DNA of 64,000 bases from Alphaproteobacteria bacterium (GTDB lineage: Bacteria > Pseudomonadota > Alphaproteobacteria > UBA828), in assembly GCA_963422645.2 (NCBI GenBank), contig CAXXVO010000007.1, positions 1 to 64,000 on the forward strand, written 5' to 3'. Below the pieces are notes generated by a model. It worked only from the letters and a program-made list of their open reading frames with translations, did not search any database and had not been told where the DNA came from. Both the position numbers and the translations under genes were made by a program. Positions within the stretch are counted from its first letter, which is position 1. Every line of letters begins with the position of its first letter. Below, piece by piece: positions 13,047 to 44,749 of the stretch.

Positions 13047-13173
13047 CCCAAGGCTTGGAGTAACTGCCCAGGTCGTCTGATTTGTCATTTTGGGCCAGTG
13101 GATTGAGGCGTTTCTCGTTCGGAGTTGGTGGAAAGGGCTTGACGGGAATTTCGGGAAATGACTCAACAACGAC

Positions 13174-14670: not shown

Positions 14671-15080
14671 GCTCACCTGGCACGGGTTCTCCAACAGCGG
14701 AGCCATTCTCATAAACGATCATGGTCGACGCCGTGCTGGACCACCCCATAGAATGAAAATCGGTGCCCGTCGCGCGGGCGGACTTCGGGCCACATCGGGG
14801 TAGCTTACCGGTCGCAGTCCGCAAGAGGGGCATCGTGAGCTGTGAAACCCGGCGACCACAGAGGAGCACACGGGCGTCGCGTGGGTAGCGTTGTGCCGAA
14901 TCCCAGAGAATTTTCGTAACTGCCCAGGTACCCCCTCTCTCTTATGGAACAAGCCAGTTCCTTTTGCGTCAACGCCCCCACGCCGCGGGGGTGCCTACTC
15001 TCTTGAGCGCGAGAGGATGATGAACGCCGCGTCGCGAACAAGATGAGAGGACAGCGATACTCAGGATGAGCCGGAGAAGT

Positions 15081-17283: not shown

Positions 17284-17311
17284 GGACCGCTCCCGTCACG
17301 CGAGAGAGCAG

Positions 17312-17340
17312 TCCATAGTCCCGCAACTCTATGAGGTCAA
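17312..17340 (-). promoter_or_regulatory. Putative sigma70 promoter of the MTase-transposase operon (TTGACC-N17-TATGGA)
   Basis: Both boxes and the spacing are conserved in B2 while the spacer sequence diverges. Confidence 0.6.
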
Positions 17341-17464
17341 GAACCAATCGCGGTGGCAGAACCAGACCGCGGCCGCCGCCATAATCACCGTCCTCAACTC
17401 AGGATTGGGGTACCTGGGTAGTTACTAATTTTCACAGCAAGAACCTGGGCAGTTACGATTTTTC

Positions 17465-19832: not shown

Positions 19833-21720
19833 GTAACCGCCCAGGTTCTTGCTGTGAAAATTCTCTGGGATTCGGCACAACGCTACCCACGCGACGCCCG
19901 TGTGCTCCTCTGGGGTCGCCGGGTTTCACAGCTCACGATGCCCCTCTTGCGGACTGCGACCGGTAAGCTACCCCGATGTGGCCCGAAGTCCGCCCGCGCG
20001 ACGGGCACCGATTTTCATTCTATGGGGTGGTCCAGCACGGCGTCGACCATGATCGTTTATGAGAATGGCTCCGCTGTTGGAGAACCCGTGCCAGGTGAGC
20101 TTACGCGCACTTGACGGTGGCGATGAGCCGATCCGATGGGCTGGTCAGGGCTTCGATGATATTCCAGCCCTGCTTTCTGGCGGTGGTGATGACGCTGCGC
20201 AGGATGGCGAAGTTCTCGGCCCCCTGCGCGGACCGGAAGCCCCCGGAGATCTTCTGGCGCAGCTTCATCATCCGAAGGTCGCGCTCGGCCTCGTTGTTCG
20301 TGAACCCGACCTCGAGGTCGATCAGGAACCGGAGCACCGCGCATTTGTGGTCGCGCAGCCTCAAGGCCAGATTGTGACCGATCCTTCGCTTCCGGCGCTT
20401 CTTCCTCTTGCCAGGCGAGAACGGTGGTTGGCTCTCGTGAAAGGCCAGCGCATCGGCGATGATCTCGTCGTATCGGCGCTCGATCAGCGCCACAAGCCTC
20501 GCCGGAACGGCGATATCCTTGTCCAGCGCGATGCGGGCGGCGCGATTGGCTCGGCGCAGGAGCTGCTGCATCCGCCGGGCCCAAGCCTCCCCTTCGATGT
20601 CCACCAGCGCCTGCAACTCCCGCAGGTGATGGGCGTTGCACAGGCCGTGCTCCACCCCTTCCATCGCGAAGTACGGCTTCCAGTGATCGTGCACGACGAT
20701 GCCGGAGACACCCGAGAGCAGGGCGCCGCGCTTGCCGCTGACCCGGTACGCCGCCAGCAGCGGCGTGCAGATCACATGAAGCCACTGCGTCTGACCGCCG
20801 ATCCGCAAGCCGGTCTCGTCCATGTGTTTCACCCGCGCCGTGCCCGCCGCCAGGTCCTGTATGTGCAAGGCCGCGTCCCGCAGCCGCTCGGCCGCCCTCT
20901 CGCTCATCGTCGCCAACGTCGCAGCCGTCACCGGCGCGCCGAAGAGCTCGGCCATCACCTGCGACAGCCGATCCTCCGGCAGGAAGTGAGCGTGCTGAAG
21001 GTAGACCGCCACCCCGGCAATGCGCGGGCCGTACTGCACCGGCGCCGACACCCCGTCGGGGAACGCCGCCCGGGTCACCGTCCCGCAATGCCCGCAGCAC
21101 TTGGCATGCGCCCGGTGCTCGGTCACCTCCAGGGGGCTCGGCTCGGGCAGATCGAACACCTGGCGGGCGACGGGCGTTCCCGCCCTGGCCGCGTCCGAAA
21201 GCGGCGAACCGCATCCCTTGCAGGAAGCCGGGACGTGATCCTTCACCCGATCCGGGTGATCGGCGCGGCGCAGCGTCTTGCCCTTGTGGCCGGGCTGGCC
21301 ACCGGGCTTGCGGCCCGATTTGCCGCGCAGGCTTCGGGTTCGCCGCTTCGAATTCGGCTTCCTCAGCCCATCGCTCGAAGGCGGCTTGACGCTGTTGCCG
21401 CTGTTGAGGCCGAGACGGCGCTCCAACTCCTCGATGCGCTCGACGAGACGCGCGACTTGCTCTTCCAGCCGCGCGTTCTGCTGCCGAAGCCAGGCATTTT
21501 CCTCCCGAAGCCGGGCGTTCTCCTCCTCCAGGCGGGCGATCTTCTGCGCGGGCGTTTCGGGCGCTGCTCCCGTCGAAGGGCCGCGCGGCGACTCGGGATT
21601 GCTCATGTCGTTGTTGAGTCATTTCCCGAAATTCCCGTCAAGCCCTTTCCACCAACTCCGAACGAGAAACGCCTCAATCCACTGGCCCAAAATGACAAAT
21701 CAGACGACCTGGGCAGTTAC
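19833..21720 (-). mobile_element. IS66 element A, copy 3 (transposase 20101-21606)
   Basis: IRR variant GTAACCGCCCAGG; flanks GTCTAAAC and CTTTCTAG do not match. Confidence 0.95.
20101..21606 (-). CDS. IS66 family transposase, copy A3
   Basis: 501 aa, NSGNSVKPP variant. Confidence 0.95.
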   Translation of the reverse strand: MSNPESPRGPSTGAAPETPAQKIARLEEENARLREENAWLRQQNARLEEQVARLVERIEELERRLGLNSGNSVKPPSSDGLRKPNSKRRTRSLRGKSGRKPGGQPGHKGKTLRRADHPDRVKDHVPASCKGCGSPLSDAARAGTPVARQVFDLPEPSPLEVTEHRAHAKCCGHCGTVTRAAFPDGVSAPVQYGPRIAGVAVYLQHAHFLPEDRLSQVMAELFGAPVTAATLATMSERAAERLRDAALHIQDLAAGTARVKHMDETGLRIGGQTQWLHVICTPLLAAYRVSGKRGALLSGVSGIVVHDHWKPYFAMEGVEHGLCNAHHLRELQALVDIEGEAWARRMQQLLRRANRAARIALDKDIAVPARLVALIERRYDEIIADALAFHESQPPFSPGKRKKRRKRRIGHNLALRLRDHKCAVLRFLIDLEVGFTNNEAERDLRMMKLRQKISGGFRSAQGAENFAILRSVITTARKQGWNIIEALTSPSDRLIATVKCA

Positions 21721-31690: not shown

Positions 31691-32442
31691 CAGCGCCCTC
31701 CATCCTGCCCCTGGAGCTCCGCGGCGTGAGCTTCGAGCGCGACCGGCAAAGATTGCTCAAGTCGGTCTCGATGCGCGTCGCCGAGGGGCCGAAGACGATC
31801 ATCATGGGGCCCAACGGTGCCGGGAAGAGCCTCCTGCTCCGGCTCTGCCACGGGCTGCTCGCGCCGAGCGAGGGCGAGGTGCTGTGGCATGGCGCCGCCG
31901 GGCGCGACCCGCTGCGCTTCCAGGCGATGGTGATGCAGCGGCCGGTGATGCTGCGCCGCTCGGTCGCCGCCAACATCGACTTCGCGCTCGGCCTGCGCCG
32001 CATCCCCCGGCCCGAGCGCCGGCGGCTCATTGACGACGCGCTGGAGCGCACCGGGCTCGGCGCCTTCGCGCGCATTCCGGCGCGCGTGCTCTCCTTCGGC
32101 GAGCAGCAGCGGCTGGCGCTCGCGCGCTCCTGGGCGCTGCACCCGCAGGTGCTCTTCCTCGACGAGCCGACCGCCAATCTCGACCCGGCGGCGACCCACG
32201 TGATAGAGGGCGCGATCGAGGCGATGGCCCGGGAGGGCACCAAGATCATCATGACCACCCACGATCTCGGCCAGGCGCGGCGGCTCGCCGACGAGGTGAT
32301 GTTCCTGCACCGCGGCCGCGTGCTGGAGCACGCAGTAGCCGAGACCTTCTTTGCGGGGCCTGAGAACGAGCTCGCCAGCGCCTTCCTACGCGGGGAGCTC
32401 TTGTGGTGGGAGCGCCGCGAGCTCACCCCGCCCGGGGCCTGA
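31687..32442 (+). CDS. tupC: Tungstate ABC transporter ATP-binding protein
   Basis: GPNGAGKS, LSFGEQQR, DEPTANLD; lies between tupB and tupA. Confidence 0.85.
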   Translation: MTAPSILPLELRGVSFERDRQRLLKSVSMRVAEGPKTIIMGPNGAGKSLLLRLCHGLLAPSEGEVLWHGAAGRDPLRFQAMVMQRPVMLRRSVAANIDFALGLRRIPRPERRRLIDDALERTGLGAFARIPARVLSFGEQQRLALARSWALHPQVLFLDEPTANLDPAATHVIEGAIEAMAREGTKIIMTTHDLGQARRLADEVMFLHRGRVLEHAVAETFFAGPENELASAFLRGELLWWERRELTPPGA

Positions 32443-32459
32443 AGCAGAGACCGCTGCCC

Positions 32460-33299
32460 ATGCGACTCTACGGCCGCTCCCGAGGCCGCGTCCTCCGCCT
32501 CTTCGCGGCGTTGGCCCTCGCGCTCCTGCTGGCAGCGCCGGGCGCGCGGGCCGGGGACTTCATCACCGTCGCCTCGACCACGTCGACCCAGAACGCCGGG
32601 CTCTTCGATCATCTGCTGCCGCTCTTCGAGGCCGAGACCGGGATCGAGGTGCGCGTCGTCGCGGTCGGCACCGGCCAAGCGCTGCGGCTCGCGCGGAACG
32701 GCGATGCGGACTTGCTGCTGGTGCACGACAAGCCGTCCGAGAAAGCGTTCGTTGCCGAAGGCTACGGCAGCGCGCGCTTCGACCTGATGTACAACGACTT
32801 CGTGGTGGTCGGGCCGGCGAGCGATCCGGCTGGAATCGCCGGCACGGACGACGCAGCCGCGGCGCTTGCCAGCATCGCGGCGGCGAAAGCGCCCTTCGTC
32901 AGCCGAGGCGACGACAGCGGCACCCACCGGCGCGAGCAGGCACTCTGGGCGGCTGCTGGGGTGGACCCCACCGGTGCGTCCGGCACCTGGTACCGCGAAG
33001 CAGGCCAAGGCATGGGGGCGACGCTCAACACCGCGACGATGATGGAGGCTTACACGCTCGCCGACCGCGGCACGTGGCTCGCCATGCGGGGCAGGCTCGA
33101 CCTCCGGGTCGTGGTGGAGGGCGATGCGCGGCTCCGCAACCAGTACGGCATCACCCTGGTAAGCCCGGAGCGGCACCCGCACGTCAAGGCGGCGCTTGCC
33201 CGGCGCTTCGCCGATTGGCTGCTCTCGCCCGCGGGCCAGGCGGCGATCGACGGCTTCGCCATCGACGGCGAGCGCCTCTTCATCCCCAACGCGCGCTAA
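32460..33299 (+). CDS. tupA: Tungstate ABC transporter substrate-binding protein
   Basis: ASTTSTQNAGL, AVGTGQAL, MYNDF, SRGDDSGTH. Confidence 0.9.
   Translation: MRLYGRSRGRVLRLFAALALALLLAAPGARAGDFITVASTTSTQNAGLFDHLLPLFEAETGIEVRVVAVGTGQALRLARNGDADLLLVHDKPSEKAFVAEGYGSARFDLMYNDFVVVGPASDPAGIAGTDDAAAALASIAAAKAPFVSRGDDSGTHRREQALWAAAGVDPTGASGTWYREAGQGMGATLNTATMMEAYTLADRGTWLAMRGRLDLRVVVEGDARLRNQYGITLVSPERHPHVKAALARRFADWLLSPAGQAAIDGFAIDGERLFIPNAR
33200..33292 (+). repeat. 93-bp direct repeat, left copy (tupA 3' end; attL-like)
   Basis: 89/93 identical to 35797-35889 by manual alignment. Confidence 0.9.
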
Positions 33300-33415
33300 C
33301 CCGTATTTCTGTCGGGATCACGGCTTGCGTCGGGCGGGACGCGGGCGACGACGCCCCTCGCCCTAGACACGCATCAAGATATTGTGGATTGCGGGGAAAG
33401 CCATACAGAATCTGG

Positions 33416-33444
33416 TTGACAGCACCGGCCGAATTCTCCAGAAC
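33416..33444 (+). promoter_or_regulatory. Putative promoter of the tRNA (TTGACA-N17-CAGAAC)
   Basis: Perfect -35 and weak -10, 21 nt upstream of the tRNA. Confidence 0.55.
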
Positions 33445-33465
33445 TCGACCAGTGCTGCACATTGC

Positions 33466-33551
33466 GGGCGCGTGGCGGAATTGGTAGACGCAGCGGTCTA
33501 GAAAACCGTGGCCTGAGGAGCATGTGGGTTCGAGTCCCACCGCGCCCACCA
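33466..33551 (+). tRNA. Class II tRNA with anticodon AGA (Ser by anticodon) on a tRNA-Leu-type body; CCA encoded
   Basis: Acceptor GGGCGCG/CGCGCCC + A73 + CCA; D arm GCGGAATTGGTAGACGC; anticodon stem GCGGT/ACCGT with loop CT-AGA-AA (anticodon 33500-33502); 14-nt variable region; T arm GTGGG-TTCGAGT-CCCAC. Confidence 0.93.
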
Positions 33552-33585
33552 GGGGCGGCCCAGTAGGGTCGCCCCTTTCCTTTCC
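33551..33585 (+). terminator. Rho-independent terminator after the tRNA
   Basis: AGGGGCGGCCC-AGTA-GGGTCGCCCCT hairpin followed by TTCCTTTCC. Confidence 0.8.
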
Positions 33586-33632
33586 ACCCGCATCTTGAGC
33601 CGAGAGGATCACCGGGTCAAGAAGAAATTGGC

Positions 33633-35520
33633 GTAACTGCCCAGGTTCTTGCTGTGAAAATTCTCTGGGATTCGGCACAACGCTACCCACGCGACGCCCG
33701 TGTGCTCCTCTGGGGTCGCCGGGTTTCACAGCTCACGATGCCCCTCTTGCGGACTGCGACCGGTAAGCTACCCCGATGTGGCCCGAAGTCCGCCCGCGCG
33801 ACGGGCACCGATTTTCATTCTATGGGGTGGTCCAGCACGGCGTCGACCATGATCGTTTATGAGAATGGCTCCGCTGTTGGAGAACCCGTGCCAGGTGAGC
33901 TTACGCGCACTTGACGGTGGCGATGAGCCGATCCGATGGGCTGGTCAGGGCTTCGATGATATTCCAGCCCTGCTTTCTGGCGGTGGTGATGACGCTGCGC
34001 AGGATGGCGAAGTTCTCGGCCCCCTGCGCGGACCGGAAGCCCCCGGAGATCTTCTGGCGCAGCTTCATCATCCGAAGGTCGCGCTCGGCCTCGTTGTTCG
34101 TGAACCCGACCTCGAGGTCGATCAGGAACCGGAGCACCGCGCATTTGTGGTCGCGCAGCCTCAAGGCCAGATTGTGACCGATCCTTCGCTTCCGGCGCTT
34201 CTTCCTCTTGCCAGGCGAGAACGGTGGTTGGCTCTCGTGAAAGGCCAGCGCATCGGCGATGATCTCGTCGTATCGGCGCTCGATCAGCGCCACAAGCCTC
34301 GCCGGAACGGCGATATCCTTGTCCAGCGCGATGCGGGCGGCGCGATTGGCTCGGCGCAGGAGCTGCTGCATCCGCCGGGCCCAAGCCTCCCCTTCGATGT
34401 CCACCAGCGCCTGCAACTCCCGCAGGTGATGGGCGTTGCACAGGCCGTGCTCCACCCCTTCCATCGCGAAGTACGGCTTCCAGTGATCGTGCACGACGAT
34501 GCCGGAGACACCCGAGAGCAGGGCGCCGCGCTTGCCGCTGACCCGGTACGCCGCCAGCAGCGGCGTGCAGATCACATGAAGCCACTGCGTCTGACCGCCG
34601 ATCCGCAAGCCGGTCTCGTCCATGTGTTTCACCCGCGCCGTGCCCGCCGCCAGGTCCTGTATGTGCAAGGCCGCGTCCCGCAGCCGCTCGGCCGCCCTCT
34701 CGCTCATCGTCGCCAACGTCGCAGCCGTCACCGGCGCGCCGAAGAGCTCGGCCATCACCTGCGACAGCCGATCCTCCGGCAGGAAGTGAGCGTGCTGAAG
34801 GTAGACCGCCACCCCGGCAATGCGCGGGCCGTACTGCACCGGCGCCGACACCCCGTCGGGGAACGCCGCCCGGGTCACCGTCCCGCAATGCCCGCAGCAC
34901 TTGGCATGCGCCCGGTGCTCGGTCACCTCCAGGGGGCTCGGCTCGGGCAGATCGAACACCTGGCGGGCGACGGGCGTTCCCGCCCTGGCCGCGTCCGAAA
35001 GCGGCGAACCGCATCCCTTGCAGGAAGCCGGGACGTGATCCTTCACCCGATCCGGGTGATCGGCGCGGCGCAGCGTCTTGCCCTTGTGGCCGGGCTGGCC
35101 ACCGGGCTTGCGGCCCGATTTGCCGCGCAGGCTTCGGGTTCGCCGCTTCGAATTCGGCTTCCTCAGCCCATCGCTCGAAGGCGGCTTGACGCTGTTGCCG
35201 CTGTTGAGGCCGAGACGGCGCTCCAACTCCTCGATGCGCTCGACGAGACGCGCGACTTGCTCTTCCAGCCGCGCGTTCTGCTGCCGAAGCCAGGCATTTT
35301 CCTCCCGAAGCCGGGCGTTCTCCTCCTCCAGGCGGGCGATCTTCTGCGCGGGCGTTTCGGGCGCTGCTCCCGTCGAAGGGCCGCGCGGCGACTCGGGATT
35401 GCTCATGTCGTTGTTGAGTCATTTCCCGAAATTCCCGTCAAGCCCTTTCCACCAACTCCGAACGAGAAACGCCTCAATCCACTGGCCCAAAATGACAAAT
35501 CAGACGACCTGGGCAGTTAC
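33633..35520 (-). mobile_element. IS66 element A, copy 4 (transposase 33901-35406) with a perfect 8-bp target duplication
   Basis: AAATTGGC at 33625-33632 and 35521-35528. Confidence 0.97.
33901..35406 (-). CDS. IS66 family transposase, copy A4
   Basis: 501 aa, same protein as A3. Confidence 0.95.
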   Translation of the reverse strand: MSNPESPRGPSTGAAPETPAQKIARLEEENARLREENAWLRQQNARLEEQVARLVERIEELERRLGLNSGNSVKPPSSDGLRKPNSKRRTRSLRGKSGRKPGGQPGHKGKTLRRADHPDRVKDHVPASCKGCGSPLSDAARAGTPVARQVFDLPEPSPLEVTEHRAHAKCCGHCGTVTRAAFPDGVSAPVQYGPRIAGVAVYLQHAHFLPEDRLSQVMAELFGAPVTAATLATMSERAAERLRDAALHIQDLAAGTARVKHMDETGLRIGGQTQWLHVICTPLLAAYRVSGKRGALLSGVSGIVVHDHWKPYFAMEGVEHGLCNAHHLRELQALVDIEGEAWARRMQQLLRRANRAARIALDKDIAVPARLVALIERRYDEIIADALAFHESQPPFSPGKRKKRRKRRIGHNLALRLRDHKCAVLRFLIDLEVGFTNNEAERDLRMMKLRQKISGGFRSAQGAENFAILRSVITTARKQGWNIIEALTSPSDRLIATVKCA

Positions 35521-35524
35521 AAAT

Positions 35525-35566
35525 TGGCTCTCAATTGGATTCCAAATGGATTCCAATTGAGAGCCA
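35525..35566. promoter_or_regulatory. 42-bp imperfect palindrome, probable operator
   Basis: TGGCTCTCAATTGGA-TTCCAAATGGAT-TCCAATTGAGAGCCA, with TGGATTCCAA twice; 24 nt upstream of an RHH-like gene. Confidence 0.65.
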
Positions 35567-35590: not shown

Positions 35591-35779
35591 ATGGCCGAAA
35601 ACAAGCCGATCCATGTCCGAATTTCGCAGATCATGCATGAGTACCTGCAGGACTTGACTGATACTGGGGCTTACGGAGCTAACCCCACGGACGTAGCTCG
35701 GACACTGATCGAAGAAGGAGTGAGAAGGGCTCTGGCGGAGAAGATTATCGAAGTTCGGCGCGGCACCAAGTCGGGTTAG
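35591..35779 (+). CDS. Small ribbon-helix-helix (CopG/Arc-like) protein
   Basis: 62 aa; alternating strand KPIHVRIS, helix, GAYG-NPTDVARTLIEEGV helix; lower GC than the flanks. Confidence 0.65.
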   Translation: MAENKPIHVRISQIMHEYLQDLTDTGAYGANPTDVARTLIEEGVRRALAEKIIEVRRGTKSG

Positions 35780-35796: not shown

Positions 35797-35889
35797 CCGG
35801 CGCTTCGCCGAATGGCTGCTCTCGCCCGCAGGCCAGGCGGCGATCGACGGCTTCACCATCGATGGCGAGCGCCTCTTCATCCCCAACGC
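35797..35889 (+). repeat. 93-bp direct repeat, right copy (displaced tupA 3' end; attR-like)
   Basis: Encodes RRFAEWLLSPAGQAAIDGFTIDGERLFIPNA; 4 mismatches to tupA. Confidence 0.9.
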
Positions 35890-35968: not shown

Positions 35969-37285
35969 ATGGCGGTCAAGATTCTACCCAAGGAGGACGC
36001 CACCAACGGCTGGAGCCGCATCCTGCCCCCACGCGAGCCCACGCCTGCGCTCAAGGGTGACGTGCGCGCCGACTGGCTGGTGGTGGGCGCGGGCTTCGCC
36101 GGCCTGGCGGCGGCACGCAGGCTCGCCGAGAACCGCCCCGACGATCACATCGTCCTGCTCGACGCCCACGAGGTGGGCGAGGGCGCCTCAGGCCGCAACT
36201 CGGGCTTCGCCATCGACCTGCCGCACAATGTCGGCGGCGAGTTCGAGGAGCTTTCGGGGGCGCACGACTACATCCGCCTCAGCCGGGCGGCGATCGACTA
36301 TCTGGATGCGTGCGTGGCGCAGAACGGGATCGAGTGCGCCTACACCCATCGCGGCAAGTACCACGCCGCCCGCACGGAGCTCGGGCGCGAGAAGATCCTG
36401 GAGCCCTTCGCGCGCGCGCTCGACGAACTCGACGAGCCCTATCGCTGGGTCGACGCCGCCGGTCTCAAGCGGGAGCTCGGCACGTCCTATCACACATCGG
36501 CGCTCTACACGGCGGGCTTGCGGCTCATGAACCCGGCGGGCCTCACCAAGGGCCTCGCCGACACGCTGCCCGGAAACGTGACGCTGCACGAGCACACACC
36601 GGTGATGGAGGTGGAGGAGCGGAACGGCATTCGCGCGACCACCCCGGGCGGCACCGTCGACGCCCAGGCCATGGTGCTCGCAGTCAACGGCTTTGCGCCG
36701 CAGTTCTCGGTCTTCAAGGGCTCCTTGCTCAACTTCGCGGCCCACGGCAGCCTGACCCGGCCGCTCACCGAGGCCGAGCACCAGGCGCTCGGCGGCGTCG
36801 ATGACTGGGGCCTCACCCCGGCCAACTCCCACATCAGCGTCACCATGCGCTACACCACCGAGCGGCGCATCCTGATCCGCCAACGCTTCTTTTATGCGCC
36901 GAGGCTCCGGCGCTCGGACGCCGAAATGGAGACGATCCGACGGGACCATCAGCGGGCTTTCGAAGCGCGCTTCCCGATGCTGCCGGAGGTCAAGATCGAG
37001 CACACCTGGCGCGGCTATGTCTGCCTCTCGCGCAACCATGCGCCGGGCTTCGGCAAGGTGGGCCCCCACACCTTCGCCGCCGTGTGCCAGAACGGGGTGG
37101 GCGTCACCAAGGGCACCATCTCGGGCGTGCTGGCGGCGGACATGGCCACCGGCCAGGACAACCCGCTCATCGCCGACTTGGAGGCACAGGGGAAACCGGA
37201 CCCGTTGCCGCCGGCCCCCATCACGTACCTGGGCGTGCGCGCCCGCCTCGCCCTCGACGATATCCGCTGGCGGCGCGAGCGTTAG
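35969..37285 (+). CDS. FAD-dependent oxidoreductase (DAO/DadA family)
   Basis: VVGAGFAGLAAA, GASGRNSGF. Confidence 0.88.
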   Translation: MAVKILPKEDATNGWSRILPPREPTPALKGDVRADWLVVGAGFAGLAAARRLAENRPDDHIVLLDAHEVGEGASGRNSGFAIDLPHNVGGEFEELSGAHDYIRLSRAAIDYLDACVAQNGIECAYTHRGKYHAARTELGREKILEPFARALDELDEPYRWVDAAGLKRELGTSYHTSALYTAGLRLMNPAGLTKGLADTLPGNVTLHEHTPVMEVEERNGIRATTPGGTVDAQAMVLAVNGFAPQFSVFKGSLLNFAAHGSLTRPLTEAEHQALGGVDDWGLTPANSHISVTMRYTTERRILIRQRFFYAPRLRRSDAEMETIRRDHQRAFEARFPMLPEVKIEHTWRGYVCLSRNHAPGFGKVGPHTFAAVCQNGVGVTKGTISGVLAADMATGQDNPLIADLEAQGKPDPLPPAPITYLGVRARLALDDIRWRRER

Positions 37286-39240: not shown

Positions 39241-39740
39241 GGAGCGTTATCCATGACTGACGCCGCAGTATCCAGCGGACCGGATCTTCTCGAGCGGCTG
39301 GCGGCAGGGCCTGTCATCTGCGCCGAGGGCTATCTGTTCGAGATCGAGCGCCGCGGCTATCTCTCCGCAGGCGCCTACGTGCCGGAGGCGGTTCTCGACC
39401 ACCCGGAGGTCGTGGCCCAATTGCACCGCGATTTTCTGCACGCGGGCTCCGACGTCATGCTGGCCTTCACCTACTACGCCCATCGCGAGAAGCTGCGGGT
39501 GATCGGCAGGGAGGACACGCTCGAGGAGATGAACCGCACGGCGCTCCGCCTGGCGCGGGAGGCGGCGCAGGGGAGCGACGCGCTGGTCGCCGGCAATGTG
39601 TCCAACTCCAGCATTTACGTAACTGCCCAGGTCGTCTGATTTGTCGTAACTACCCAGGTACCCCGCCGCCAGTTCTGAGTGCGTGCTGATGTTGCTTGCC
39701 GTCGGTGCCGTTTCGCCGTCGGCGCGTCGTTGATCCCCGC

Positions 39741-39769
39741 TTGACTGTATAGGTTCTCTCGCCTATGGG
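39741..39769 (+). promoter_or_regulatory. Putative sigma70 promoter of the MTase-transposase operon (TTGACT-N17-TATGGG)
   Basis: Conserved with the B1 promoter. Confidence 0.6.
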
Positions 39770-39797
39770 TTGCACTCTCGCATGAGAGGAGCAGCCG

Positions 39798-40466
39798 GTG
39801 GGGTATTTCGGGTCGAAGGCGACGACCGGTCTGAGCCAGGCGCTGATTGCGCTGATGCCGCCGCACTCTGTCTATATCGAGAGCCATCTTGGGGGCGGGG
39901 CGCTGATGAAGCGCAAGCCTGCGGCCATGCGCTCGATCGGGATCGACCGCGACGAGCGGGCGCTTGAGGCCTTTGGCTGCGACTACCCGGTGGAGTTGGT
40001 GCCCGGCTGCGCCCATTCCTTCCTGGCCTCGTTCCCGTTTCTGGGCCCGGAGCTGGTCTACAGCGATCCGCCCTATCTGCACGCGACCCGGCGTTCGTCG
40101 CAGCGCTACCGCTTCGAGTACGAGGAGGCCGACCACGTCGCGCTCCTCGAACTGCTCAAGGGTCTGCCCTGCCAGGTGATGGTCTCGGGCCACCCGTCTG
40201 CGCTCTATGACGAGCTGCTGGCGGGCTGGCGCCGGCTGGCGCTGCAGGTGACGACCCAGGCCCAGGTGCGGACCGAGGTCGTGTGGTTCAACTTCGCGCC
40301 TGACCGGGTGCACTGGGCGAGCTTCGCCGGCCGGAACTTCACCGAGCGCCAGTGCATCAAGCGCAAGGCGGCCAACTGGGGCCGGCGCTACGAGGCCATG
40401 CCGGCGGGCGAACGCCTGGCGGTGCTGGCCGCGATCATGGCCGTCGAGGCCGACGAGGGTTCGTGA
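39798..40466 (+). CDS. Dam-like N6-adenine DNA methyltransferase, IS passenger
   Basis: YFGSK, ESHLGGG, DPPY; GTGA overlap with the transposase. Confidence 0.88.
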   Translation: MGYFGSKATTGLSQALIALMPPHSVYIESHLGGGALMKRKPAAMRSIGIDRDERALEAFGCDYPVELVPGCAHSFLASFPFLGPELVYSDPPYLHATRRSSQRYRFEYEEADHVALLELLKGLPCQVMVSGHPSALYDELLAGWRRLALQVTTQAQVRTEVVWFNFAPDRVHWASFAGRNFTERQCIKRKAANWGRRYEAMPAGERLAVLAAIMAVEADEGS

Positions 40467-42004
40467 CAGTGTCGCGCTGGCACGAGGACCTCGCTGCCCA
40501 CGACGAGGCCTTCGCGTGCCTGCAGGACCTTTTCACCCCACAATCCTTCGCAATGACCGCCGTCAAAGCCATTCGGGAATGGGGCCAGAGGTTGCTGCGC
40601 CTGAGCGCGGCCCTGGTCAAGGAGAACGACGCGCTGGAGCGGGAGAACGCCCGCTTGCGCGAGCGGATCGCCGAACTCGAGCGCAGCGCCGCGCTCGACA
40701 GCACCACCAGCTCCAAGCCGCCGGCCAGCGACGGTCTGAAGAAGAAGAGCGGTGACCGGGAGAAGCGCACCCGGAGCCAGCGCGGCAAGTCCGACAGGCC
40801 CAGTGGCGGCCAGCCGGGCCACAAGGGAACTACCCTGGAGCGGACCGCGACGCCCGACCATGTCGTCGATCATGATCCGTCCGCCTGTGAGGGCTGCGGC
40901 GCGCCGCTGTCGGACGCTGACCGTCACGGAGCCCCCGTCTGCCGGCAGGTCTTCGATGTGCCCGAGCCGCAGCCCCTCGAGGTCACCGAACATCGCGGCC
41001 ATCGTTGCCTCTGCGCTGCCTGCGGCACCGTGACGACAGCCGTCTTCCCGAACGGCGTGAGCGCACCGGTCCAATACGGGCCGCGCATCACCGCGTGGGT
41101 GACCTACCTGCTGCACGCTCAGTTCATTCCCGAGAAGCGGGTCGCCGAGGTCATGAGCGACCTCTTCGCGGTCAAGCTCTCAACAGCCACCATCGTCGCC
41201 ATGGGAAGGCGCACCGCCCGGCGCTTCGAGGGCTTCCTCGATCGCCTCGCGGAGATCATCCGCACCGCAGCCCCAGTCAAACACCTCGACGAGACCGGCA
41301 TCCGCATCGCCGCCCGGACCCATTGGCTCCATGTGCTGTGCACCCCGTTGCTCACCATCCTGCGCGTCGCCACCGGGCGCAGCCACATCGACGAGAAGCT
41401 CAACGGCATCGTCATCCATGACGACTACGCCACCTACTTCGCTCTCGAGGGCGTGCGCCACGGGGCCTGCAACGCCCATCACCTGCGCGAGCTCCAAGCC
41501 CTCATCGAGATCGAGAAGGAAGACTGGGCAACGAGCACGCACCGGCTCCTCATCCGTGCCAACAGAGCCGCCCGCTTCGCCCACAAGAACGACCGCGACG
41601 TGCCCGCCTCACTGGTGGCCCGCATCTCGCGAGCCTGGGACCGCATCCTCGAACGTGCCATCGCCTCTCACGAAGAAATGCCACCGCTCCAGACCGGAAA
41701 GCGCGGACGACAAAAGCGCCGCATCGGTCACAACCTCGCCCTCCGACTCCAGAAGTACAAGGAGGGGTGCCTGCGCTTCCTCACCGATCCGCGAACCCCC
41801 TTCTCCAACAACGAGGCCGAGCGCGACCTCCGAATGGGCAAGCTGCGCCAGAAAATCTCAGGCGGCTTCCGCTCGATACAAGGCGCCCGCGACTTCGCAA
41901 ACCTGCGATCCGTCATCGCCACCGCTCGAAAACAGCGCTGGAATGTCCTCGAAACCCTGGCGCACCCCGATCCAATCCAGCTGATCCCCGTATTGCGCTT
42001 CTGA
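40463..42004 (+). CDS. IS66 family transposase of B2 (intact)
   Basis: KPPASDG, GGQPGHKG, HLDETG, HDDY, CNAHHLREL, SNNEAERDLR. Confidence 0.93.
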   Translation: MTVSRWHEDLAAHDEAFACLQDLFTPQSFAMTAVKAIREWGQRLLRLSAALVKENDALERENARLRERIAELERSAALDSTTSSKPPASDGLKKKSGDREKRTRSQRGKSDRPSGGQPGHKGTTLERTATPDHVVDHDPSACEGCGAPLSDADRHGAPVCRQVFDVPEPQPLEVTEHRGHRCLCAACGTVTTAVFPNGVSAPVQYGPRITAWVTYLLHAQFIPEKRVAEVMSDLFAVKLSTATIVAMGRRTARRFEGFLDRLAEIIRTAAPVKHLDETGIRIAARTHWLHVLCTPLLTILRVATGRSHIDEKLNGIVIHDDYATYFALEGVRHGACNAHHLRELQALIEIEKEDWATSTHRLLIRANRAARFAHKNDRDVPASLVARISRAWDRILERAIASHEEMPPLQTGKRGRQKRRIGHNLALRLQKYKEGCLRFLTDPRTPFSNNEAERDLRMGKLRQKISGGFRSIQGARDFANLRSVIATARKQRWNVLETLAHPDPIQLIPVLRF

Positions 42005-42201
42005 AATCCTGCGCTGCTCCGGGAAAGCGCCGCCTGACCCCTGGCTGGTCAGAACCATCAATCCATCACGTCCGAGTGCTCGGCAGAATCAGACCTGGGC
42101 AGTTACGATTTGTCATTTTGGGCCAGTGGATTGAGGCGTTTCTCGTTCGGAGTTGGTGGAAAGGGCTTGACGGGAATTTCGGGAAATGACTCAACAACGA
42201 C

Positions 42202-43707
42202 ATGAGCAATCCCGAGTCGCCGCGCGGCCCTTCGACGGGAGCAGCGCCCGAAACGCCCGCGCAGAAGATCGCCCGCCTGGAGGAGGAGAACGCCCGGCTT
42301 CGGGAGGAAAATGCCTGGCTTCGGCAGCAGAACGCGCGGCTGGAAGAGCAAGTCGCGCGTCTCGTCGAGCGCATCGAGGAGTTGGAGCGCCGTCTCGGCC
42401 TCAACAGCGGCAACAGCGGCAAGCCGCCTTCGAGCGATGGGCTGAGGAAGCCGAATTCGAAGCGGCGAACCCGAAGCCTGCGCGGCAAATCGGGCCGCAA
42501 GCCCGGTGGCCAGCCCGGCCACAAGGGCAAGACGCTGCGCCGCGCCGATCACCCGGATCGGGTGAAGGATCACGTCCCGGCTTCCTGCAAGGGATGCGGT
42601 TCGCCGCTTTCGGACGCGGCCAGGGCGGGAACGCCCGTCGCCCGCCAGGTGTTCGATCTGCCCGAGCCGAGCCCCCTGGAGGTGACCGAGCACCGGGCGC
42701 ATGCCAAGTGCTGCGGGCATTGCGGGACGGTGACCCGGGCGGCGTTCCCCGACGGGGTGTCGGCGCCGGTGCAGTACGGCCCGCGCATTGCCGGGGTGGC
42801 GGTCTACCTTCAGCACGCTCACTTCCTGCCGGAGGATCGGCTGTCGCAGGTGATGGCCGAGCTCTTCGGCGCGCCGGTGACGGCTGCGACGTTGGCGACG
42901 ATGAGCGAGAGGGCGGCCGAGCGGCTGCGGGACGCGGCCTTGCACATACAGGACCTGGCGGCGGGCACGGCGCGGGTGAAACACATGGACGAGACCGGCT
43001 TGCGGATCGGCGGTCAGACGCAGTGGCTTCATGTGATCTGCACGCCGCTGCTGGCGGCGTACCGGGTCAGCGGCAAGCGCGGCGCCCTGCTCTCGGGTGT
43101 CTCCGGCATCGTCGTGCACGATCACTGGAAGCCGTACTTCGCGATGGAAGGGGTGGAGCACGGCCTGTGCAACGCCCATCACCTGCGGGAGTTGCAGGCG
43201 CTGGTGGACATCGAAGGGGAGGCTTGGGCCCGGCGGATGCAGCAGCTCCTGCGCCGAGCCAATCGCGCCGCCCGCATCGCGCTGGACAAGGATATCGCCG
43301 TTCCGGCGAGGCTTGTGGCGCTGATCGAGCGCCGATACGACGAGATCATCGCCGATGCGCTGGCCTTTCACGAGAGCCAACCACCGTTCTCGCCTGGCAA
43401 GAGGAAGAAGCGCCGGAAGCGAAGGATCGGTCACAATCTGGCCTTGAGGCTGCGCGACCACAAATGCGCGGTGCTCCGGTTCCTGATCGACCTCGAGGTC
43501 GGGTTCACGAACAACGAGGCCGAGCGCGACCTTCGGATGATGAAGCTGCGCCAGAAGATCTCCGGGGGCTTCCGGTCCGCGCAGGGGGCCGAGAACTTCG
43601 CCATCCTGCGCAGCGTCATCACCACCGCCAGAAAGCAGGGCTGGAATATCATCGAAGCCCTGACCAGCCCATCGGATCGGCTCATCGCCACCGTCAAGTG
43701 CGCGTAA
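42202..43707 (+). CDS. IS66 family transposase, copy A5
   Basis: 501 aa, NSGNSGKPP variant. Confidence 0.95.
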   Translation: MSNPESPRGPSTGAAPETPAQKIARLEEENARLREENAWLRQQNARLEEQVARLVERIEELERRLGLNSGNSGKPPSSDGLRKPNSKRRTRSLRGKSGRKPGGQPGHKGKTLRRADHPDRVKDHVPASCKGCGSPLSDAARAGTPVARQVFDLPEPSPLEVTEHRAHAKCCGHCGTVTRAAFPDGVSAPVQYGPRIAGVAVYLQHAHFLPEDRLSQVMAELFGAPVTAATLATMSERAAERLRDAALHIQDLAAGTARVKHMDETGLRIGGQTQWLHVICTPLLAAYRVSGKRGALLSGVSGIVVHDHWKPYFAMEGVEHGLCNAHHLRELQALVDIEGEAWARRMQQLLRRANRAARIALDKDIAVPARLVALIERRYDEIIADALAFHESQPPFSPGKRKKRRKRRIGHNLALRLRDHKCAVLRFLIDLEVGFTNNEAERDLRMMKLRQKISGGFRSAQGAENFAILRSVITTARKQGWNIIEALTSPSDRLIATVKCA

Positions 43708-44749
43708 GCTCACCTGGCACGGGTTCTCCAACAGCGGAGCCATTCTCATAAACGATCATGGTCGACGCCGTGCTGGACCACCCCATAGAATGAAAATCGG
43801 TGCCCGTCGCGCGGGCGGACTTCGGGCCACATCGGGGTAGCTTACCGGTCGCAGTCCGCAAGAGGGGCATCGTGAGCTGTGAAACCCGGCGACCACAGAG
43901 GAGCACACGGGCGTCGCGTGGGTAGCGTTGTGCCGAATCCCAGAGAATTTTCACAGCAAGAACCTGGGCAGTTACACATTTACGTGGACGGCGACGCCGA
44001 GTCCGCCCGCGAGGTGCGCACGATGTTCGACGAGCAGGTGGCCTGGGCCGTCGACGAGGGCGTGGATTACATCGTCGCCGAGACCATCTCCTTCGTCGGC
44101 GAGGCCCTGCTCGCGCTTGAAGCGATCAAGGCGGCCGGCCAGACGGCAGTGATCAACCTCGCCGTCCACCGCGACCCGACCACGCGGGACGGATTGAGCC
44201 TGGCCGAGGCAGCCAAGCGCCTGGAAGACGCGGGCGCCGACGTGGTCGGGCTCAACTGCACGCGCGGCCCGGCCACCATGCTGCCGCTGCTCGGCCCCAT
44301 TCGCGAGGCGGTGAGCTGCCACGTCGCGGCGCTGCCGGTGGCCTACCGCACCACCGCCGAGCAACCCAGCTTCCAGGCCCTGGAGGATCCCGGCTGCGCC
44401 TGTCTGCCGCGGGAGCGGCCCTTCCCCACCGCGCTCGACCCCTTCACCGTCAATCGTTACGAGATCGAGAAATTCACCAGGGACGCGCAGGCGCTCGGCG
44501 TCAACTATCTCGGCGTCTGCTGCGGCGCGTCCCCCCACCACATCCGCAGCATGGCGGAGGCCCTCGGCCGGCACCCGCCGGGGAGCAGGTACTCGCCCGA
44601 CATGTCCACACACGCCTTCTACGGCACCTCGGACAAGGTCCCGTCCGAATACAAGGACTTCGCGAAGCACCTTTAGGAGGGGTCGGGCACCAGGGCTGCG
44701 GGAGACGCCGCACGCCCGCGTAACCATCGTGAACTGGGAGAACATGTCC

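What the first reader, a model, noticed from the sequence alone, without database searches (positions are those of the whole stretch)
33416..33585. Leucine-bodied tRNA with a serine (AGA) anticodon: candidate Ser-to-Leu mistranslating tRNA
Seen: a clean 7/5 cloverleaf with encoded CCA, a TTGACA -35 upstream and a terminator hairpin downstream, so it does not look decayed. The only 5-bp stem/7-nt loop register gives C32-U33-A34-G35-A36-A37-A38, anticodon AGA, which reads UCU. The body is Leu-type: A73, A15:U48, D arm GCGGAATTGGTAGACGC with A20a, G13:A22, and a 14-nt variable region ending in AU. It lacks the G73 and G15:C48 typical of bacterial tRNA-Ser. Established: bacterial LeuRS generally does not read the anticodon, and A34 tRNAs are rare in bacteria outside Arg(ACG). 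Mistranslating A34 tRNAs are known for Pro-bodied tRNAs in Streptomyces. A36-A37-A38 is a MiaA substrate motif. Inference: this tRNA may be charged with Leu by host LeuRS and insert it at UCU, or more UCN codons if A34 wobbles or is deaminated. The loop is two substitutions from Leu CAA/TAA loops, so one sequencing error does not explain it. TCT looks rare in these GC-rich genes, so damage might fall mainly on AT-rich foreign (phage) genes. That last point is speculation.
Basis: partly seen in the sequence, partly recalled or inferred. Interest (0 to 1): 0.92.

Follow-up and report, generated by a model that had tools for sequence, protein, structure and literature searches.

The report
Leucine-type tRNA carrying a serine anticodon
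A foreign, structurally intact tRNA gene combines the features that leucine-charging enzymes recognise with a serine (UCU) anticodon arm, so it may put leucine where serine is coded, but this has not been tested.

Summary
Window 33466-33551 (+) is a good tRNA gene (Rfam 57.4 bits) with anticodon AGA at 33500-33502. Contigs of three further public runs show the same letters there.

It scores as Leu. My covariance models give Leu 83.6 and Ser 64.9 bits. It carries A73, A15-U48, G18G19 and A20a, the elements listed for E. coli LeuRS.

It is a hybrid, not a doubly mutated Leu tRNA. Its 17-nt anticodon arm equals this genus's tRNA-Ser(CGA) arm except C34>A. It has G2:C71 like all Ser tRNAs; all 30 Leu tRNAs compared have C2:G71.

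The gene is foreign. It lies with a 62-aa ORF in an insertion absent from four congeners, between 93-nt direct repeats, later split by an IS66-family element.

I found no homologue in 460 related genomes, phage and plasmid records, or pattern scans. The genome has full Leu and Ser tRNA sets, one LeuRS, one SerRS and MiaA. TCT is rare (1.74 per 1000 codons).

Best reading (about 0.45): leucylated, decodes UCU, low-level Ser-to-Leu mistranslation. Charging and decoding are inferred. Transcription rests on one RNA-seq contig.

Rivals: an inert relic, Ser or dual charging, or a role outside translation.

The parts
33200..33292 (+). Left copy of a 93-nt direct repeat. It is the 3' end of the solute-binding-protein gene 32403-33299 and looks like an attL.
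   Evidence: family D12: 96% identical to 35797-35889. In some searches its left flank is native, while the letters after it, up to the stop codon, differ from the closest relative G005 and resemble G009.
33416..33421 (+). TTGACA hexamer, a possible -35 element
   Evidence: Read. The scan found no matching -10, and the one RNA contig starts at 33428, upstream of the start this hexamer would give.
33466..33551 (+). Hybrid class II tRNA gene with encoded CCA. The anticodon AGA is at 33500-33502 and the anticodon arm at 33493-33509.
33480..33480 (+). tRNA position 15 (A15 of the A15-U48 pair). It reads G in run X5.
   Evidence: tables 3 and 8: this is the only difference in the 326 letters of X5 record 4.
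33551..33576 (+). G+C-rich hairpin after the tRNA, terminator-like with a weak T run
33633..35520 (-). IS66-family insertion sequence, 1888 bp, with its transposase ORF at 33901-35406. It inserted after the module arrived, between the tRNA and the small ORF.
   Evidence: Pfam DDE_Tnp_IS66, E 3.5e-39. The 8-bp target duplication AAATTGGC is at 33625-33632 and 35521-35528. Identical copies lie elsewhere in the window, and the genome holds 79 full-length copies.
35525..35566 (.). Palindrome just upstream of the small ORF. A role as an operator is inference.
   Evidence: Read.
35591..35779 (+). 62-aa ORF (P0001), a member of a small conserved family of unknown function
   Evidence: It has 15 relatives at 63-92% identity, 17 metagenome loci, no Pfam or PHROG match, and an AlphaFold model with two helices at pLDDT 82.6.
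35797..35889 (+). Right copy of the 93-nt direct repeat, attR-like, carrying the native 3' end of the solute-binding-protein gene
   Evidence: relatives run on without a break from here into the FAD-oxidoreductase gene 35969-37285.

Best explanation
Window 33466-33551 is an intact, horizontally acquired hybrid class II tRNA gene. Its D arm, T loop, discriminator A73 and the A15-U48 / G18G19 / A20a core are Leu-type. Its anticodon arm is the Ser(CGA)-type arm with A34, giving anticodon AGA, and its second acceptor pair is the Ser-type G2:C71.

It arrived together with a 62-aa ORF as a module of about 0.6 kb. The module was inserted between 93-nt direct repeats at the 3' end of a solute-binding-protein gene. 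An IS66-family element later landed between the tRNA and the ORF.

The most likely mechanism has four steps, all inferred. (1) The single host LeuRS ignores the anticodon and reads A73 plus the tertiary core, so it charges the tRNA with leucine. (2) MiaA probably modifies A37, given the A36-A37-A38 motif. (3) A34 probably stays unmodified, because the loop is not the Arg(ACG) loop. (4) The tRNA then pairs best with UCU and competes with tRNA-Ser(GGA) and tRNA-Ser(UGA), giving low-level Ser-to-Leu substitution at a rare codon.

Shown: the gene, its hybrid make-up, its foreign origin, its presence in independent data, the rarity of TCT, and the single LeuRS and SerRS. Inferred: transcription level, processing, charging, modification and decoding.
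For: - Gene quality: Rfam 57.4 bits. In ARAGORN's drawing the acceptor (7), anticodon (5) and T (5) stem pairs and the 3-bp D stem are all standard pairs, and the usual conserved tRNA letters are read from the sequence. By contrast, the genome's own tRNA-Ser(CGA) pseudogene at C8:555005 has a broken T arm.
- Leu-type body: profile HMMs built from 30 Leu and 23 Ser tRNAs of this genome and its relatives, anticodon masked, give Leu 56.9 and Ser 25.5 bits. True Leu tRNAs left out of the model score 33-73 on Leu; true Ser tRNAs score 7.6-14.5 on Leu.
- Covariance models: Leu 83.6 and Ser 64.9 bits.
- Nearest BLAST neighbours: those checked with ARAGORN are Leu (CAA or TAA) tRNAs, and 9 of the 18 phage records are annotated tRNA-Leu. 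Identities run 75-82%.
- Identity rules: for E. coli, A73, A15-U48, G18G19 and A20a are the essential Leu elements, and the variable arm and anticodon arm are dispensable for leucylation (passages of PMC9976931). This tRNA has all four.
- Ser-type arm: there are 0 differences outside the anticodon and 1 in all (C34>A) against the tRNA-Ser(CGA) arm. The nearest Leu arms differ at 3 and 5 positions.
- Host machinery: full Leu and Ser tRNA sets, one LeuRS and one SerRS above cut-off, and MiaA present.
- Codon use: TCT is 1.74 per 1000 codons and 3.6% of Ser codons.
- Sequence confirmed in runs X5, X7 and X10.
- One 151-nt contig of an RNA-seq run covers 33428-33558 and then runs into an Illumina adapter. 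This is a weak hint of a precursor transcript.
- Foreign origin: four congeners have the two flanking genes adjacent, without the insert.
Against: - No homologue of any anticodon was found, so there is no conservation or covariation evidence that the AGA form is selected. This covers 60 relatives, 400 genomes of the class with only two candidates scored per genome, plasmids and phages, a pattern scan of genome contigs and scans of viral contigs.
- The variable stem is poor: 2 Watson-Crick pairs, one G.U and 2 mismatches. All 30 Leu tRNAs compared have clean stems. This may mean relaxed constraint.
- G2:C71 removes what is an antideterminant against SerRS in E. coli, and G1-C72 with G2-C71 is the conserved bacterial Ser pattern. 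The Leu-minus-Ser margin is only +18.7 bits, against +57.7 for a true Leu tRNA.
- The promoter scan found nothing.
- The RNA evidence is a single contig, and DNA carry-over is not excluded.
- In run X5 the only difference in 326 letters is A15>G, in a pair listed as essential for leucylation. That fits drift, or selection against leucylation.
- 1495 of 3371 crude ORF-genes contain TCT, so an active mistranslator would carry a cost.
Confidence: 0.45

Rival explanations
1. Inert passenger. The hybrid gene is real but is poorly transcribed, badly processed or poorly charged, so it has no measurable effect on translation. It would be a by-product of recombination between tRNA genes on a decaying mobile remnant.
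For: - It is a singleton with no homologue.
- It sits in an insertion with no integrase, next to one of 79 IS66-family copies.
- No promoter was called.
- The variable stem is degenerate and nucleotide 44 is missing relative to Leu-TAA-type tRNAs.
- One strain has A15>G.
- The conserved nematode nev-tRNAs are leucylated in vitro yet gave no detectable mistranslation in vivo (abstract of PMC4300185).
Against: - In ARAGORN's drawing the acceptor, anticodon, T and 3-bp D stems are all standard pairs, although the gene is about 20% diverged from any Leu tRNA. Changes relative to the Leu-TAA type in acceptor pairs 2:71 and 3:70 and in the T stem are compensated. The cloverleaf was therefore under selection for most of its history.
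- The genome's true tRNA pseudogene looks quite different.
- One RNA-seq contig covers exactly the tRNA with short flanks.
Confidence: 0.25
2. A serine tRNA, or one with ambiguous identity. SerRS charges it, alone or alongside LeuRS. It would then act as a Watson-Crick UCU decoder, tRNA-Ser(AGA), for the mobile element or host, with little or only partial mistranslation.
For: - G1:C72 and G2:C71 are the conserved bacterial Ser pairs, and C2-G71 is the E. coli antideterminant against SerRS that this tRNA lacks. All 30 Leu tRNAs compared keep C2.
- The anticodon arm is identical to the Ser(CGA) arm except at position 34.
- Its Ser-model scores (25.5 bits HMM, 64.9 bits CM) are higher than those of any true Leu tRNA tested: at most 20.0 for the 30 left-out Leu tRNAs on the HMM, and 45.7 for the one true Leu tRNA (own Leu-TAG) scored with the CM.
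Against: - A73 is present, not G73.
- The variable region is 14 nt with a weak stem, against 16-21 nt with long stems in the Ser tRNAs compared. [quoted passage not shown]
- The D arm is Leu-type over its whole length.
- SerRS does not read the anticodon arm, so that likeness says nothing about charging.
Confidence: 0.2
3. A role outside translation, for instance as a decoy or substitute for a tRNA-targeting nuclease, a recombination site, or a regulatory RNA tied to the neighbouring small protein.
For: - It travels with a conserved 62-aa ORF that is preceded by a palindrome.
- One metagenome contig (L053) also has an odd class II tRNA about 190 nt upstream of a distant homologue of that ORF. 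That tRNA has a Ser-like body, G73 and anticodon UAU.
Against: - No nuclease or defence gene lies in the insert.
- In 15 of 17 metagenome loci and in 4 genomes, the ORF family has no tRNA within the DNA held.
- No non-coding sequence is conserved upstream of the ORF.
- Nothing in the tRNA departs from a translation-competent cloverleaf.
Confidence: 0.1

Closest known systems
tRNA-ProX family of Streptomyces and Kitasatospora (tRNA-ProA, -ProN, -ProT)
   Same: These are natural bacterial tRNAs whose body identity (Pro) disagrees with the anticodon (Ala, Asn, Thr). All have A34, which in bacteria is otherwise almost confined to tRNA-Arg(ACG). They cause mistranslation when expressed in E. coli (section 17 of PMC11415595).
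   Different: tRNA-ProX is a family conserved over many species, is co-encoded with a dedicated ProRSx, and has A33 and A15-A48. The tRNA here is a singleton with a normal U33 and A15-U48. It has no extra LeuRS or SerRS. It relies on a synthetase class that ignores the anticodon anyway.
Nematode nev-tRNAs (class II, Leu-derived, anticodons for Gly CCC or Ile UAU)
   Same: Both are class II tRNAs derived from tRNA-Leu that carry a non-Leu anticodon for a rare codon. nev-tRNAs are charged only with Leu in vitro and decode GGG as Leu in vitro (abstract and section headings of PMC3333845).
   Different: nev-tRNAs are eukaryotic, conserved across nematodes, and gave no detectable mistranslation in vivo (abstract of PMC4300185). 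The tRNA here is bacterial, sits in a foreign insert, carries a Ser anticodon, and has a Ser-type arm and Ser-type 2:71 pair.
tRNA-Ser(CAG) of CUG-clade yeasts
   Same: It crosses Ser and Leu identity between body and anticodon, with dual charging by SerRS and LeuRS in Candida (passages of section 16 of PMC11415595 seen by term search).
   Different: The direction is opposite (Ser body with a Leu anticodon), it is eukaryotic, it is fixed in a clade, and it is linked to codon reassignment.
Allo-tRNAs and the other bacterial hybrid-identity tRNAs (tRNA-Sec with GCA, selC* tRNA-Cys)
   Same: These are rare bacterial tRNAs with mismatched identity that were found by sequence mining (section 18 of PMC11415595; passages of PMC5389517).
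   Different: They have unusual 8/4 or 9/3 cloverleaves, or Sec-like structures, and Ser, Ala, Sec or Cys identity. The tRNA here has the standard 7/5 cloverleaf and Leu identity elements. A term search of PMC5389517 found no mention of tRNALeu or LeuRS.
Ordinary bacterial tRNA-Leu(UAA/CAA)
   Same: The D arm (positions 8-26) is identical to those of several Leu-TAA and Leu-CAA tRNAs of relatives. A73, the TTCGAGT T loop, the length and ends of the variable region and acceptor pairs 4-7 are of the Leu-TAA type.
   Different: The anticodon is AGA, the anticodon arm is Ser-type, pairs 2:71 and 3:70 are flipped, the variable stem is mismatched, and the best overall identity is only 79-81%.

Membership tests
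Bacterial tRNA-Leu | Discriminator A73 | tested here: met
   Read. The rule comes from PMC9976931.
Bacterial tRNA-Leu | Tertiary core A15-U48, G18G19, A20a, and a Leu-type D arm | tested here: met
   The D arm is identical to those of Leu tRNAs of relatives. The elements are those listed. Run X5 carries G15.
Bacterial tRNA-Leu | Leu anticodon (NAG or YAA) | tested here: not met
   The anticodon is AGA.
Bacterial tRNA-Leu | C2:G71, invariant in the 30 Leu tRNAs compared and an antideterminant against SerRS in E. coli | tested here: not met
   The tRNA has G2:C71.
Bacterial tRNA-Leu | A Leu isotype model scores above the Ser model | tested here: met
   HMM 56.9 against 25.5 bits; CM 83.6 against 64.9 bits. 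These are models I built myself. tRNAscan-SE was not available.
Bacterial tRNA-Ser | Long variable arm (16-21 nt here) with a long paired stem, the main SerRS determinant | tested here: not met
   The variable region is 14 nt with 2 Watson-Crick pairs.
Bacterial tRNA-Ser | G73 | tested here: not met
   The discriminator is A73.
Bacterial tRNA-Ser | G1:C72 and G2:C71 | tested here: met
   the rule is.
Bacterial tRNA-Ser | Ser anticodon and Ser-type anticodon arm | tested here: met
   One difference in 17 nt from the Ser(CGA) arm.
Natural mistranslating tRNAs (body and anticodon disagree) | Identity elements of one amino acid combined with the anticodon of another, in an intact cloverleaf | tested here: met
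Natural mistranslating tRNAs (body and anticodon disagree) | Shown to be mis-acylated relative to its anticodon and to miscode | not testable with these tools
   This needs aminoacylation assays, reporters or proteomics.
Natural mistranslating tRNAs (body and anticodon disagree) | Conserved across strains or species, as tRNA-ProX and nev-tRNA are | tested here: not met
   No homologue outside this lineage. Only near-identical copies turned up, in runs X5, X7, X9 and X10.
tRNA-ProX-like dedicated pair | A dedicated synthetase paralogue encoded alongside | tested here: not met
   One LeuRS and one SerRS score above cut-off in the genome, and neither is in the window. The neighbours are transporter genes, an IS66-family element, a small ORF and an oxidoreductase.

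The most novel reading that the evidence does not exclude
This would be the first natural bacterial tRNA with leucine identity and a serine anticodon. On this reading it is a deliberately hybrid adaptor (Leu core, Ser anticodon arm, Ser-type 2:71 pair) carried on foreign DNA, transcribed, leucylated by the host LeuRS, and inserting Leu at UCU.

The boldest version goes further. It may belong to a wider, unnoticed class of hybrid class II tRNAs that travel with the P0001 family of small proteins. Metagenome contig L053 has a tRNA with a Ser-like body and a UAU anticodon about 190 nt upstream of a P0001 homologue.
Probability: 0.3. Interest if true: 0.85.

Novelty: new variant of a known kind. 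Interest (0 to 1): 0.66.

Why it matters
The natural bacterial tRNAs whose body and anticodon disagree are few. The 2024 review lists tRNA-ProX, the Sec/Cys hybrids and the allo-tRNAs, and none has a Leu body.

LeuRS and SerRS ignore the anticodon, so class II tRNAs are the easiest route to sense-codon miscoding. That has been shown by engineering and in eukaryotes, but I found no report of it in a wild bacterium.

This gene offers a concrete, testable case that arrived on foreign DNA. It also looks like a recombinant of Leu and Ser tRNAs, which bears on how tRNA identity switches and codon reassignments begin.

If it is active, it would show that mobile DNA can import proteome-wide miscoding of a rare codon. 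If it is inert, it is a clean example of how a structurally perfect tRNA gene can mislead annotation, since ARAGORN calls it tRNA-Ser.

Tried and rejected
- **Sequencing or assembly error:** rejected. Contigs of X5 (326 letters laid) and single 151-nt contigs of X7 and X10 carry the same anticodon. X9's contig stops at 33496, before the anticodon.
- **Recent duplicate of a host Leu tRNA:** rejected. The best match in its own genome is 78%.
- **Phage or plasmid origin:** no support. The only matches are ordinary tRNA-Leu genes at 75-82%. No pattern hit in IMG/VR is a tRNA.
- **Other Leu-body/AGA tRNAs in species-representative genomes:** one pattern scan gave 2 stretches, and neither is a tRNA. 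The pattern demands a fixed D arm and loop, so variants could be missed.
- **Free-energy fold of the bare sequence:** it gave a non-cloverleaf structure with z -0.88. That says nothing for a tRNA.
- **A conserved tRNA partner for the small ORF:** rejected as a rule. tRNAs were found in 2 of 17 metagenome loci (one search used 16 of the 17, leaving out L048 for size). None lay within about 1.5 kb in 4 genomes of one genus. The one viral contig is the same contig as L048. No upstream non-coding sequence is conserved.
- **The small ORF in this order:** not found in the 48 other genomes of the order.
- **Function of P0001:** no Pfam hit below E 0.07 and no PHROG hit. The AlphaFold model has two helices. 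Foldseek against the PDB gave nothing at E <= 0.001; the best was E 1.6, and a ParD2 antitoxin came at E 6. 'Ribbon-helix-helix regulator' therefore stays a guess.
- **Other odd ARAGORN calls in the genome** (Met of 81 nt, Gln of 85 nt, Ala of 93 nt, one undetermined): these are mismatch-rich false positives. Asp of 79 nt is normal.
I do not use the lack of cover beside the tRNA in X10 as evidence.
- **Literature:** searches found no report of a bacterial Leu-bodied tRNA with a Ser anticodon. Only the held library was searched, and supplements were not seen. Supplementary tRNA lists of the tRNAscan-SE 2.0 and allo-tRNA papers could hold such cases.
Full report
**1. The observation**

ARAGORN finds a single tRNA in the 64-kb window, at 33466-33551 on the + strand. 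It calls it tRNA-Ser with anticodon AGA at tRNA position 35, which is window 33500-33502. The Rfam tRNA model matches the same interval end to end at 57.4 bits (gathering score 29, E 9.3e-10) and gives the same 5-bp stem and 7-nt loop.

The following are read from the sequence:
- a 7-bp acceptor stem and a 3-bp D stem with G13.A22;
- a 5-bp anticodon stem that includes G27.U43, and a 5-bp T stem;
- U8, A14, G18G19, A21, U33, T loop TTCGAGT, A73, and an encoded CCA.

TTGACA is at 33416-33421. The consensus scan finds no -35/-10 pair in 33200-33700, and it finds one terminator-like hairpin at 33551-33576 with a weak T run. A plain free-energy fold does not give the cloverleaf, which is usual for tRNAs and says nothing.

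**2. The sequence is not an error**

One search found public runs that hold the stretch. I laid four of them on 33150-33640; all are Logan contigs.
- X5 has the same species label but comes from another study. One of its contigs covers 33315-33640 with a single difference, 33480 A>G, which is tRNA position 15. The anticodon is unchanged.
- X7 is labelled as another organism. It has two 151-nt contigs, 33213-33363 and 33378-33528, with no difference. Between them they cover the left junction of the insert and the whole anticodon arm.
- X9 has a contig covering 33328-33496, identical, which stops four letters before the anticodon.
- X10 is an RNA-seq library labelled sponge metagenome. It has one 151-nt contig that covers 33428-33558 without difference and then runs into an Illumina adapter. 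The insert was therefore 131 nt: the tRNA with 38 nt of leader and 7 nt of trailer.

The X10 contig is a weak hint of a precursor transcript, because DNA in the library cannot be excluded. Its start at 33428 lies upstream of where a promoter using the TTGACA at 33416 would start.

**3. Which isotype the body is**

The genome (5.9 Mb, 23 contigs, 67% G+C) has Leu tRNAs with anticodons TAA, CAA, TAG, CAG and GAG. It has Ser tRNAs with GCT, CGA, TGA and GGA. The only A34 tRNAs are Arg(ACG) and this one.

From the genome and loci of relatives I collected 30 distinct Leu and 23 distinct Ser tRNAs. I scored the tRNA against models built from them.

| Model | This tRNA | True Leu tRNAs | True Ser tRNAs |
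|---|---|---|---|
| Leu HMM, anticodon masked | 56.9 | 33-73 (each left out in turn) | 7.6-14.5 |
| Ser HMM, anticodon masked | 25.5 | at most 20.0 | 34-88 (each left out in turn) |
| Leu CM, 27 sequences | 83.6 | 103.4 (own Leu-TAG) | 52.1 (own Ser-TGA) |
| Ser CM, 21 sequences | 64.9 | 45.7 (own Leu-TAG) | 115.5 (own Ser-TGA) |

Leu wins, but by +18.7 bits on the covariance models, against +57.7 for a true Leu tRNA.

The BLAST neighbours fit this. Those checked with ARAGORN are Leu (CAA or TAA) tRNAs, and 9 of the 18 phage records are annotated tRNA-Leu; identities run 75-82%.

**4. It is a hybrid**

I compared the tRNA arm by arm with the 30 Leu and 23 Ser tRNAs.
- **D arm:** positions 8-26 are letter for letter those of Leu-TAA and Leu-CAA tRNAs of relatives.
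- **T loop:** it is the Leu TTCGAGT. The Ser tRNAs compared have TTCGAAT.
- **Discriminator:** A73.
- **Variable region:** 14 nt, in the Leu range of 13-16 and below the Ser range of 16-21. It resembles the GGCC-loop-GGCC-AT arm of the Leu-TAA type, but with two mismatches in the stem and one nucleotide fewer at position 44.
- **Anticodon arm:** the 17 nt have no difference outside the anticodon, and one in all (C34>A), from the tRNA-Ser(CGA) arm of this genus, including its G27.U43. The nearest Leu arms differ at 3 positions outside the anticodon and 5 in all.
- **Acceptor stem:** pairs 2:71 and 3:70 are flipped, with compensation, relative to the Leu-TAA type. This gives G2:C71. All 30 Leu tRNAs have C2, and all Ser and Tyr tRNAs have G2.

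A Ser-derived arm is more parsimonious than five independent changes. The argument is suggestive rather than decisive. Only three positions outside the anticodon separate the two arm types, and the gene is about 20% diverged anyway.

**5. What the identity rules say**

I saw passages of the review PMC9976931. For E. coli it states:
- A73 is crucial for leucine identity, and A15-U48, G18G19 and A20a are essential.
- The sequence and folding of the variable arm do not correlate with leucylation.
- Variants without the anticodon arm and variable arm stay active.
- The C2-G71 pair of tRNA-Leu is a negative element against SerRS.
- G1-C72 and G2-C71 are conserved in bacterial tRNA-Ser.

The tRNA here has every listed Leu element. 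For Ser, it lacks the variable arm and G73. It has the Ser acceptor pairs and lacks the anti-SerRS pair. Leucylation is therefore the most likely outcome, and some serylation cannot be excluded.

The genome has one LeuRS and one SerRS above the family cut-offs, no extra paralogue, and MiaA for the A36-A37-A38 motif. From recall, not from any call: TadA needs the Arg(ACG) loop context. On that basis A34 would stay unmodified and read mainly U.

**6. Where the gene sits**

Upstream is a solute-binding-protein gene (32403-33299, PBP_like_2). Downstream is an FAD oxidoreductase gene (35969-37285). In four congeners (G005 at 93-95% identity, G009, G006, G008) these two genes are adjacent. In this genome, 33293-35796 is extra.

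The insert is bracketed by a 93-nt direct repeat, 33200-33292 and 35797-35889, 96% identical. The left copy ends the gene with letters that differ from the closest relative and resemble another congener. The right copy carries the native end. This is the pattern of integration through a shared segment, so the donor was probably a related organism.

Inside the insert, an IS66-family element (33633-35520) with a clean 8-bp duplication, AAATTGGC, has landed between the tRNA and a 62-aa ORF at 35591-35779. The genome carries 79 full-length copies of this IS. Without the IS, the module is about 0.6 kb. In order it holds 173 nt of leader, the tRNA, a hairpin, a palindrome at 35525-35566, and the ORF. 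It has no integrase.

**7. The small ORF**

- P0001 has 15 relatives at 63-92% identity in the large protein collection.
- It has no Pfam or PHROG family.
- Its AlphaFold model has two helices at pLDDT 82.6.
- There is no significant fold match in the PDB.
- It was not found in the 48 other genomes of the order.
- In a draw of 400 genomes of the phylum, it was found in 4, all of one genus.
- Seventeen metagenome loci encode relatives. Their neighbours are unrelated, and an IS1595-type transposase lies nearby in two of the five loci whose neighbours I scanned.

Only two of the 17 have a tRNA in the DNA held. One is an ordinary tRNA-Glu(CTC), 850 nt upstream in L037. The other, in L053, is a 95-nt class II tRNA with a Ser-like body, G73, two stem mismatches and anticodon UAU. 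It lies about 190 nt upstream of a 36%-identical homologue. That second odd class II tRNA is intriguing, but it is one case. No tRNA is found near the homologues in the four genomes.

**8. Searches for relatives of the tRNA**

None was found in any of these:
- 60 relatives, 20 of them of the same genus;
- 400 genomes of the class, where only two candidates per genome were scored and the two best hits are Leu-CAA at 78-81%;
- plasmids and phages;
- IMG/VR patterns;
- a pattern for a Leu D arm followed by a YTAGAAA loop over the 185,579 species genomes, which gave two stretches, neither a tRNA.

**9. Cost if it is active**

In 3371 crude ORF-genes (at least 150 aa, high GC3), TCT makes up 1.74 per 1000 codons and 3.6% of Ser codons. 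It is the eighth rarest codon, yet 1495 of these genes contain at least one. The ORF filter favours high GC3 and so slightly understates TCT.

**10. Weighing the readings**

For function:
- The acceptor, anticodon, T and 3-bp D stems are all standard pairs in ARAGORN's drawing, with compensated changes. The genome's real tRNA-Ser(CGA) pseudogene at C8:555005 has a broken T arm.
- The Leu element set is complete.
- The anticodon arm is of the type used by Ser tRNAs for UCN codons.
- There is one RNA contig.

Against function:
- It is a singleton.
- The variable stem is poor.
- No promoter was called.
- The only strain difference, A15>G in X5, hits an element listed as essential for leucylation. 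That fits either drift or selection against charging.
- The nematode precedent shows that leucylatable mismatched tRNAs need not miscode in vivo (abstract of PMC4300185).

I put the active Leu-at-UCU reading at about 0.45, an inert relic at 0.25, Ser or dual charging at 0.2, and a non-translational role at 0.1.

**11. Comparison with what is known**

The review of mistranslating tRNAs lists, for bacteria, tRNA-ProX, tRNA-Sec(GCA), selC* tRNA-Cys and the allo-tRNAs (sections 17 and 18 of PMC11415595 read). None has a Leu body.

A term search of the allo-tRNA paper finds no tRNALeu or LeuRS. The tRNAscan-SE 2.0 paper says only that body/anticodon conflicts are flagged (passages).

Six library searches found no report of a bacterial Leu-bodied tRNA with a Ser anticodon.

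The nearest parallels are the nematode nev-tRNAs and the yeast tRNA-Ser(CAG). The gene fails membership of ordinary tRNA-Leu (anticodon, 2:71) and of ordinary tRNA-Ser (variable arm, G73, D arm). It fits the general kind 'tRNA whose identity and anticodon disagree' as a new variant.

**12. Verdict**

The finding is real and is stranger than first described: a Leu/Ser hybrid inside a foreign insert. Its function is unproven and it stands alone. Interest 0.66.

Noticed in passing
L053:1299-1393 (metagenome contig), with an ORF at L053:1565-1777: A 95-nt class II tRNA with a Ser-like acceptor and D arm, G73, a very long variable arm, two stem mismatches and anticodon UAU (Ile AUA). It scores 51.3 bits on Rfam tRNA. 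A terminator follows it, and about 190 nt further on lies a distant homologue of the window's 62-aa ORF. It may be a second hybrid class II tRNA beside this ORF family.
   Followed up: partly
window 13060-14915, 17465-19343, 19833-21720, 33633-35520 and 42107-43975, and genome-wide: An IS66-family element has expanded massively. There are five copies in this window and 79 full-length copies in the 5.9-Mb genome.
   Followed up: partly
G000 C8:555005-555092 (outside the window): A decayed extra copy of tRNA-Ser(CGA). Its 5' two-thirds are almost identical to the functional gene at C16:56073-56162, but the variable arm has diverged and the T arm is broken by a 3-nt deletion. It could be a remnant of an integration site.
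   Followed up: partly
window 35591-35779: A 62-aa protein family with no Pfam or PHROG match and an invariant DVARTLIE-G-R-AL core. It is found in scattered metagenome contigs, often in low-coding islets or near IS1595-type transposases, and in all four sampled species of one distant genus. A palindrome precedes it here.
   Followed up: partly
window 1060-1359 vs 39751-40050; 15072-16163 vs 40922-42013; 16625-17341 vs 39740-40456: Further long direct and inverted repeats at 77-99% identity lie between 1 kb and 45 kb. They suggest duplicated gene blocks and rearrangements around the IS copies.
   Followed up: no
L038:1706-1848: A partial group II intron match (D1-D4-6, 41.2 bits, below the gathering score, cut off by the contig end) about 400 nt downstream of a homologue of the small ORF.
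   Followed up: no
window 33480: In run X5 (same species label, other study) the only difference across 33315-33640 is A>G at tRNA position 15. This breaks the A15-U48 pair that the identity review lists as essential for leucylation in E. coli.
   Followed up: partly
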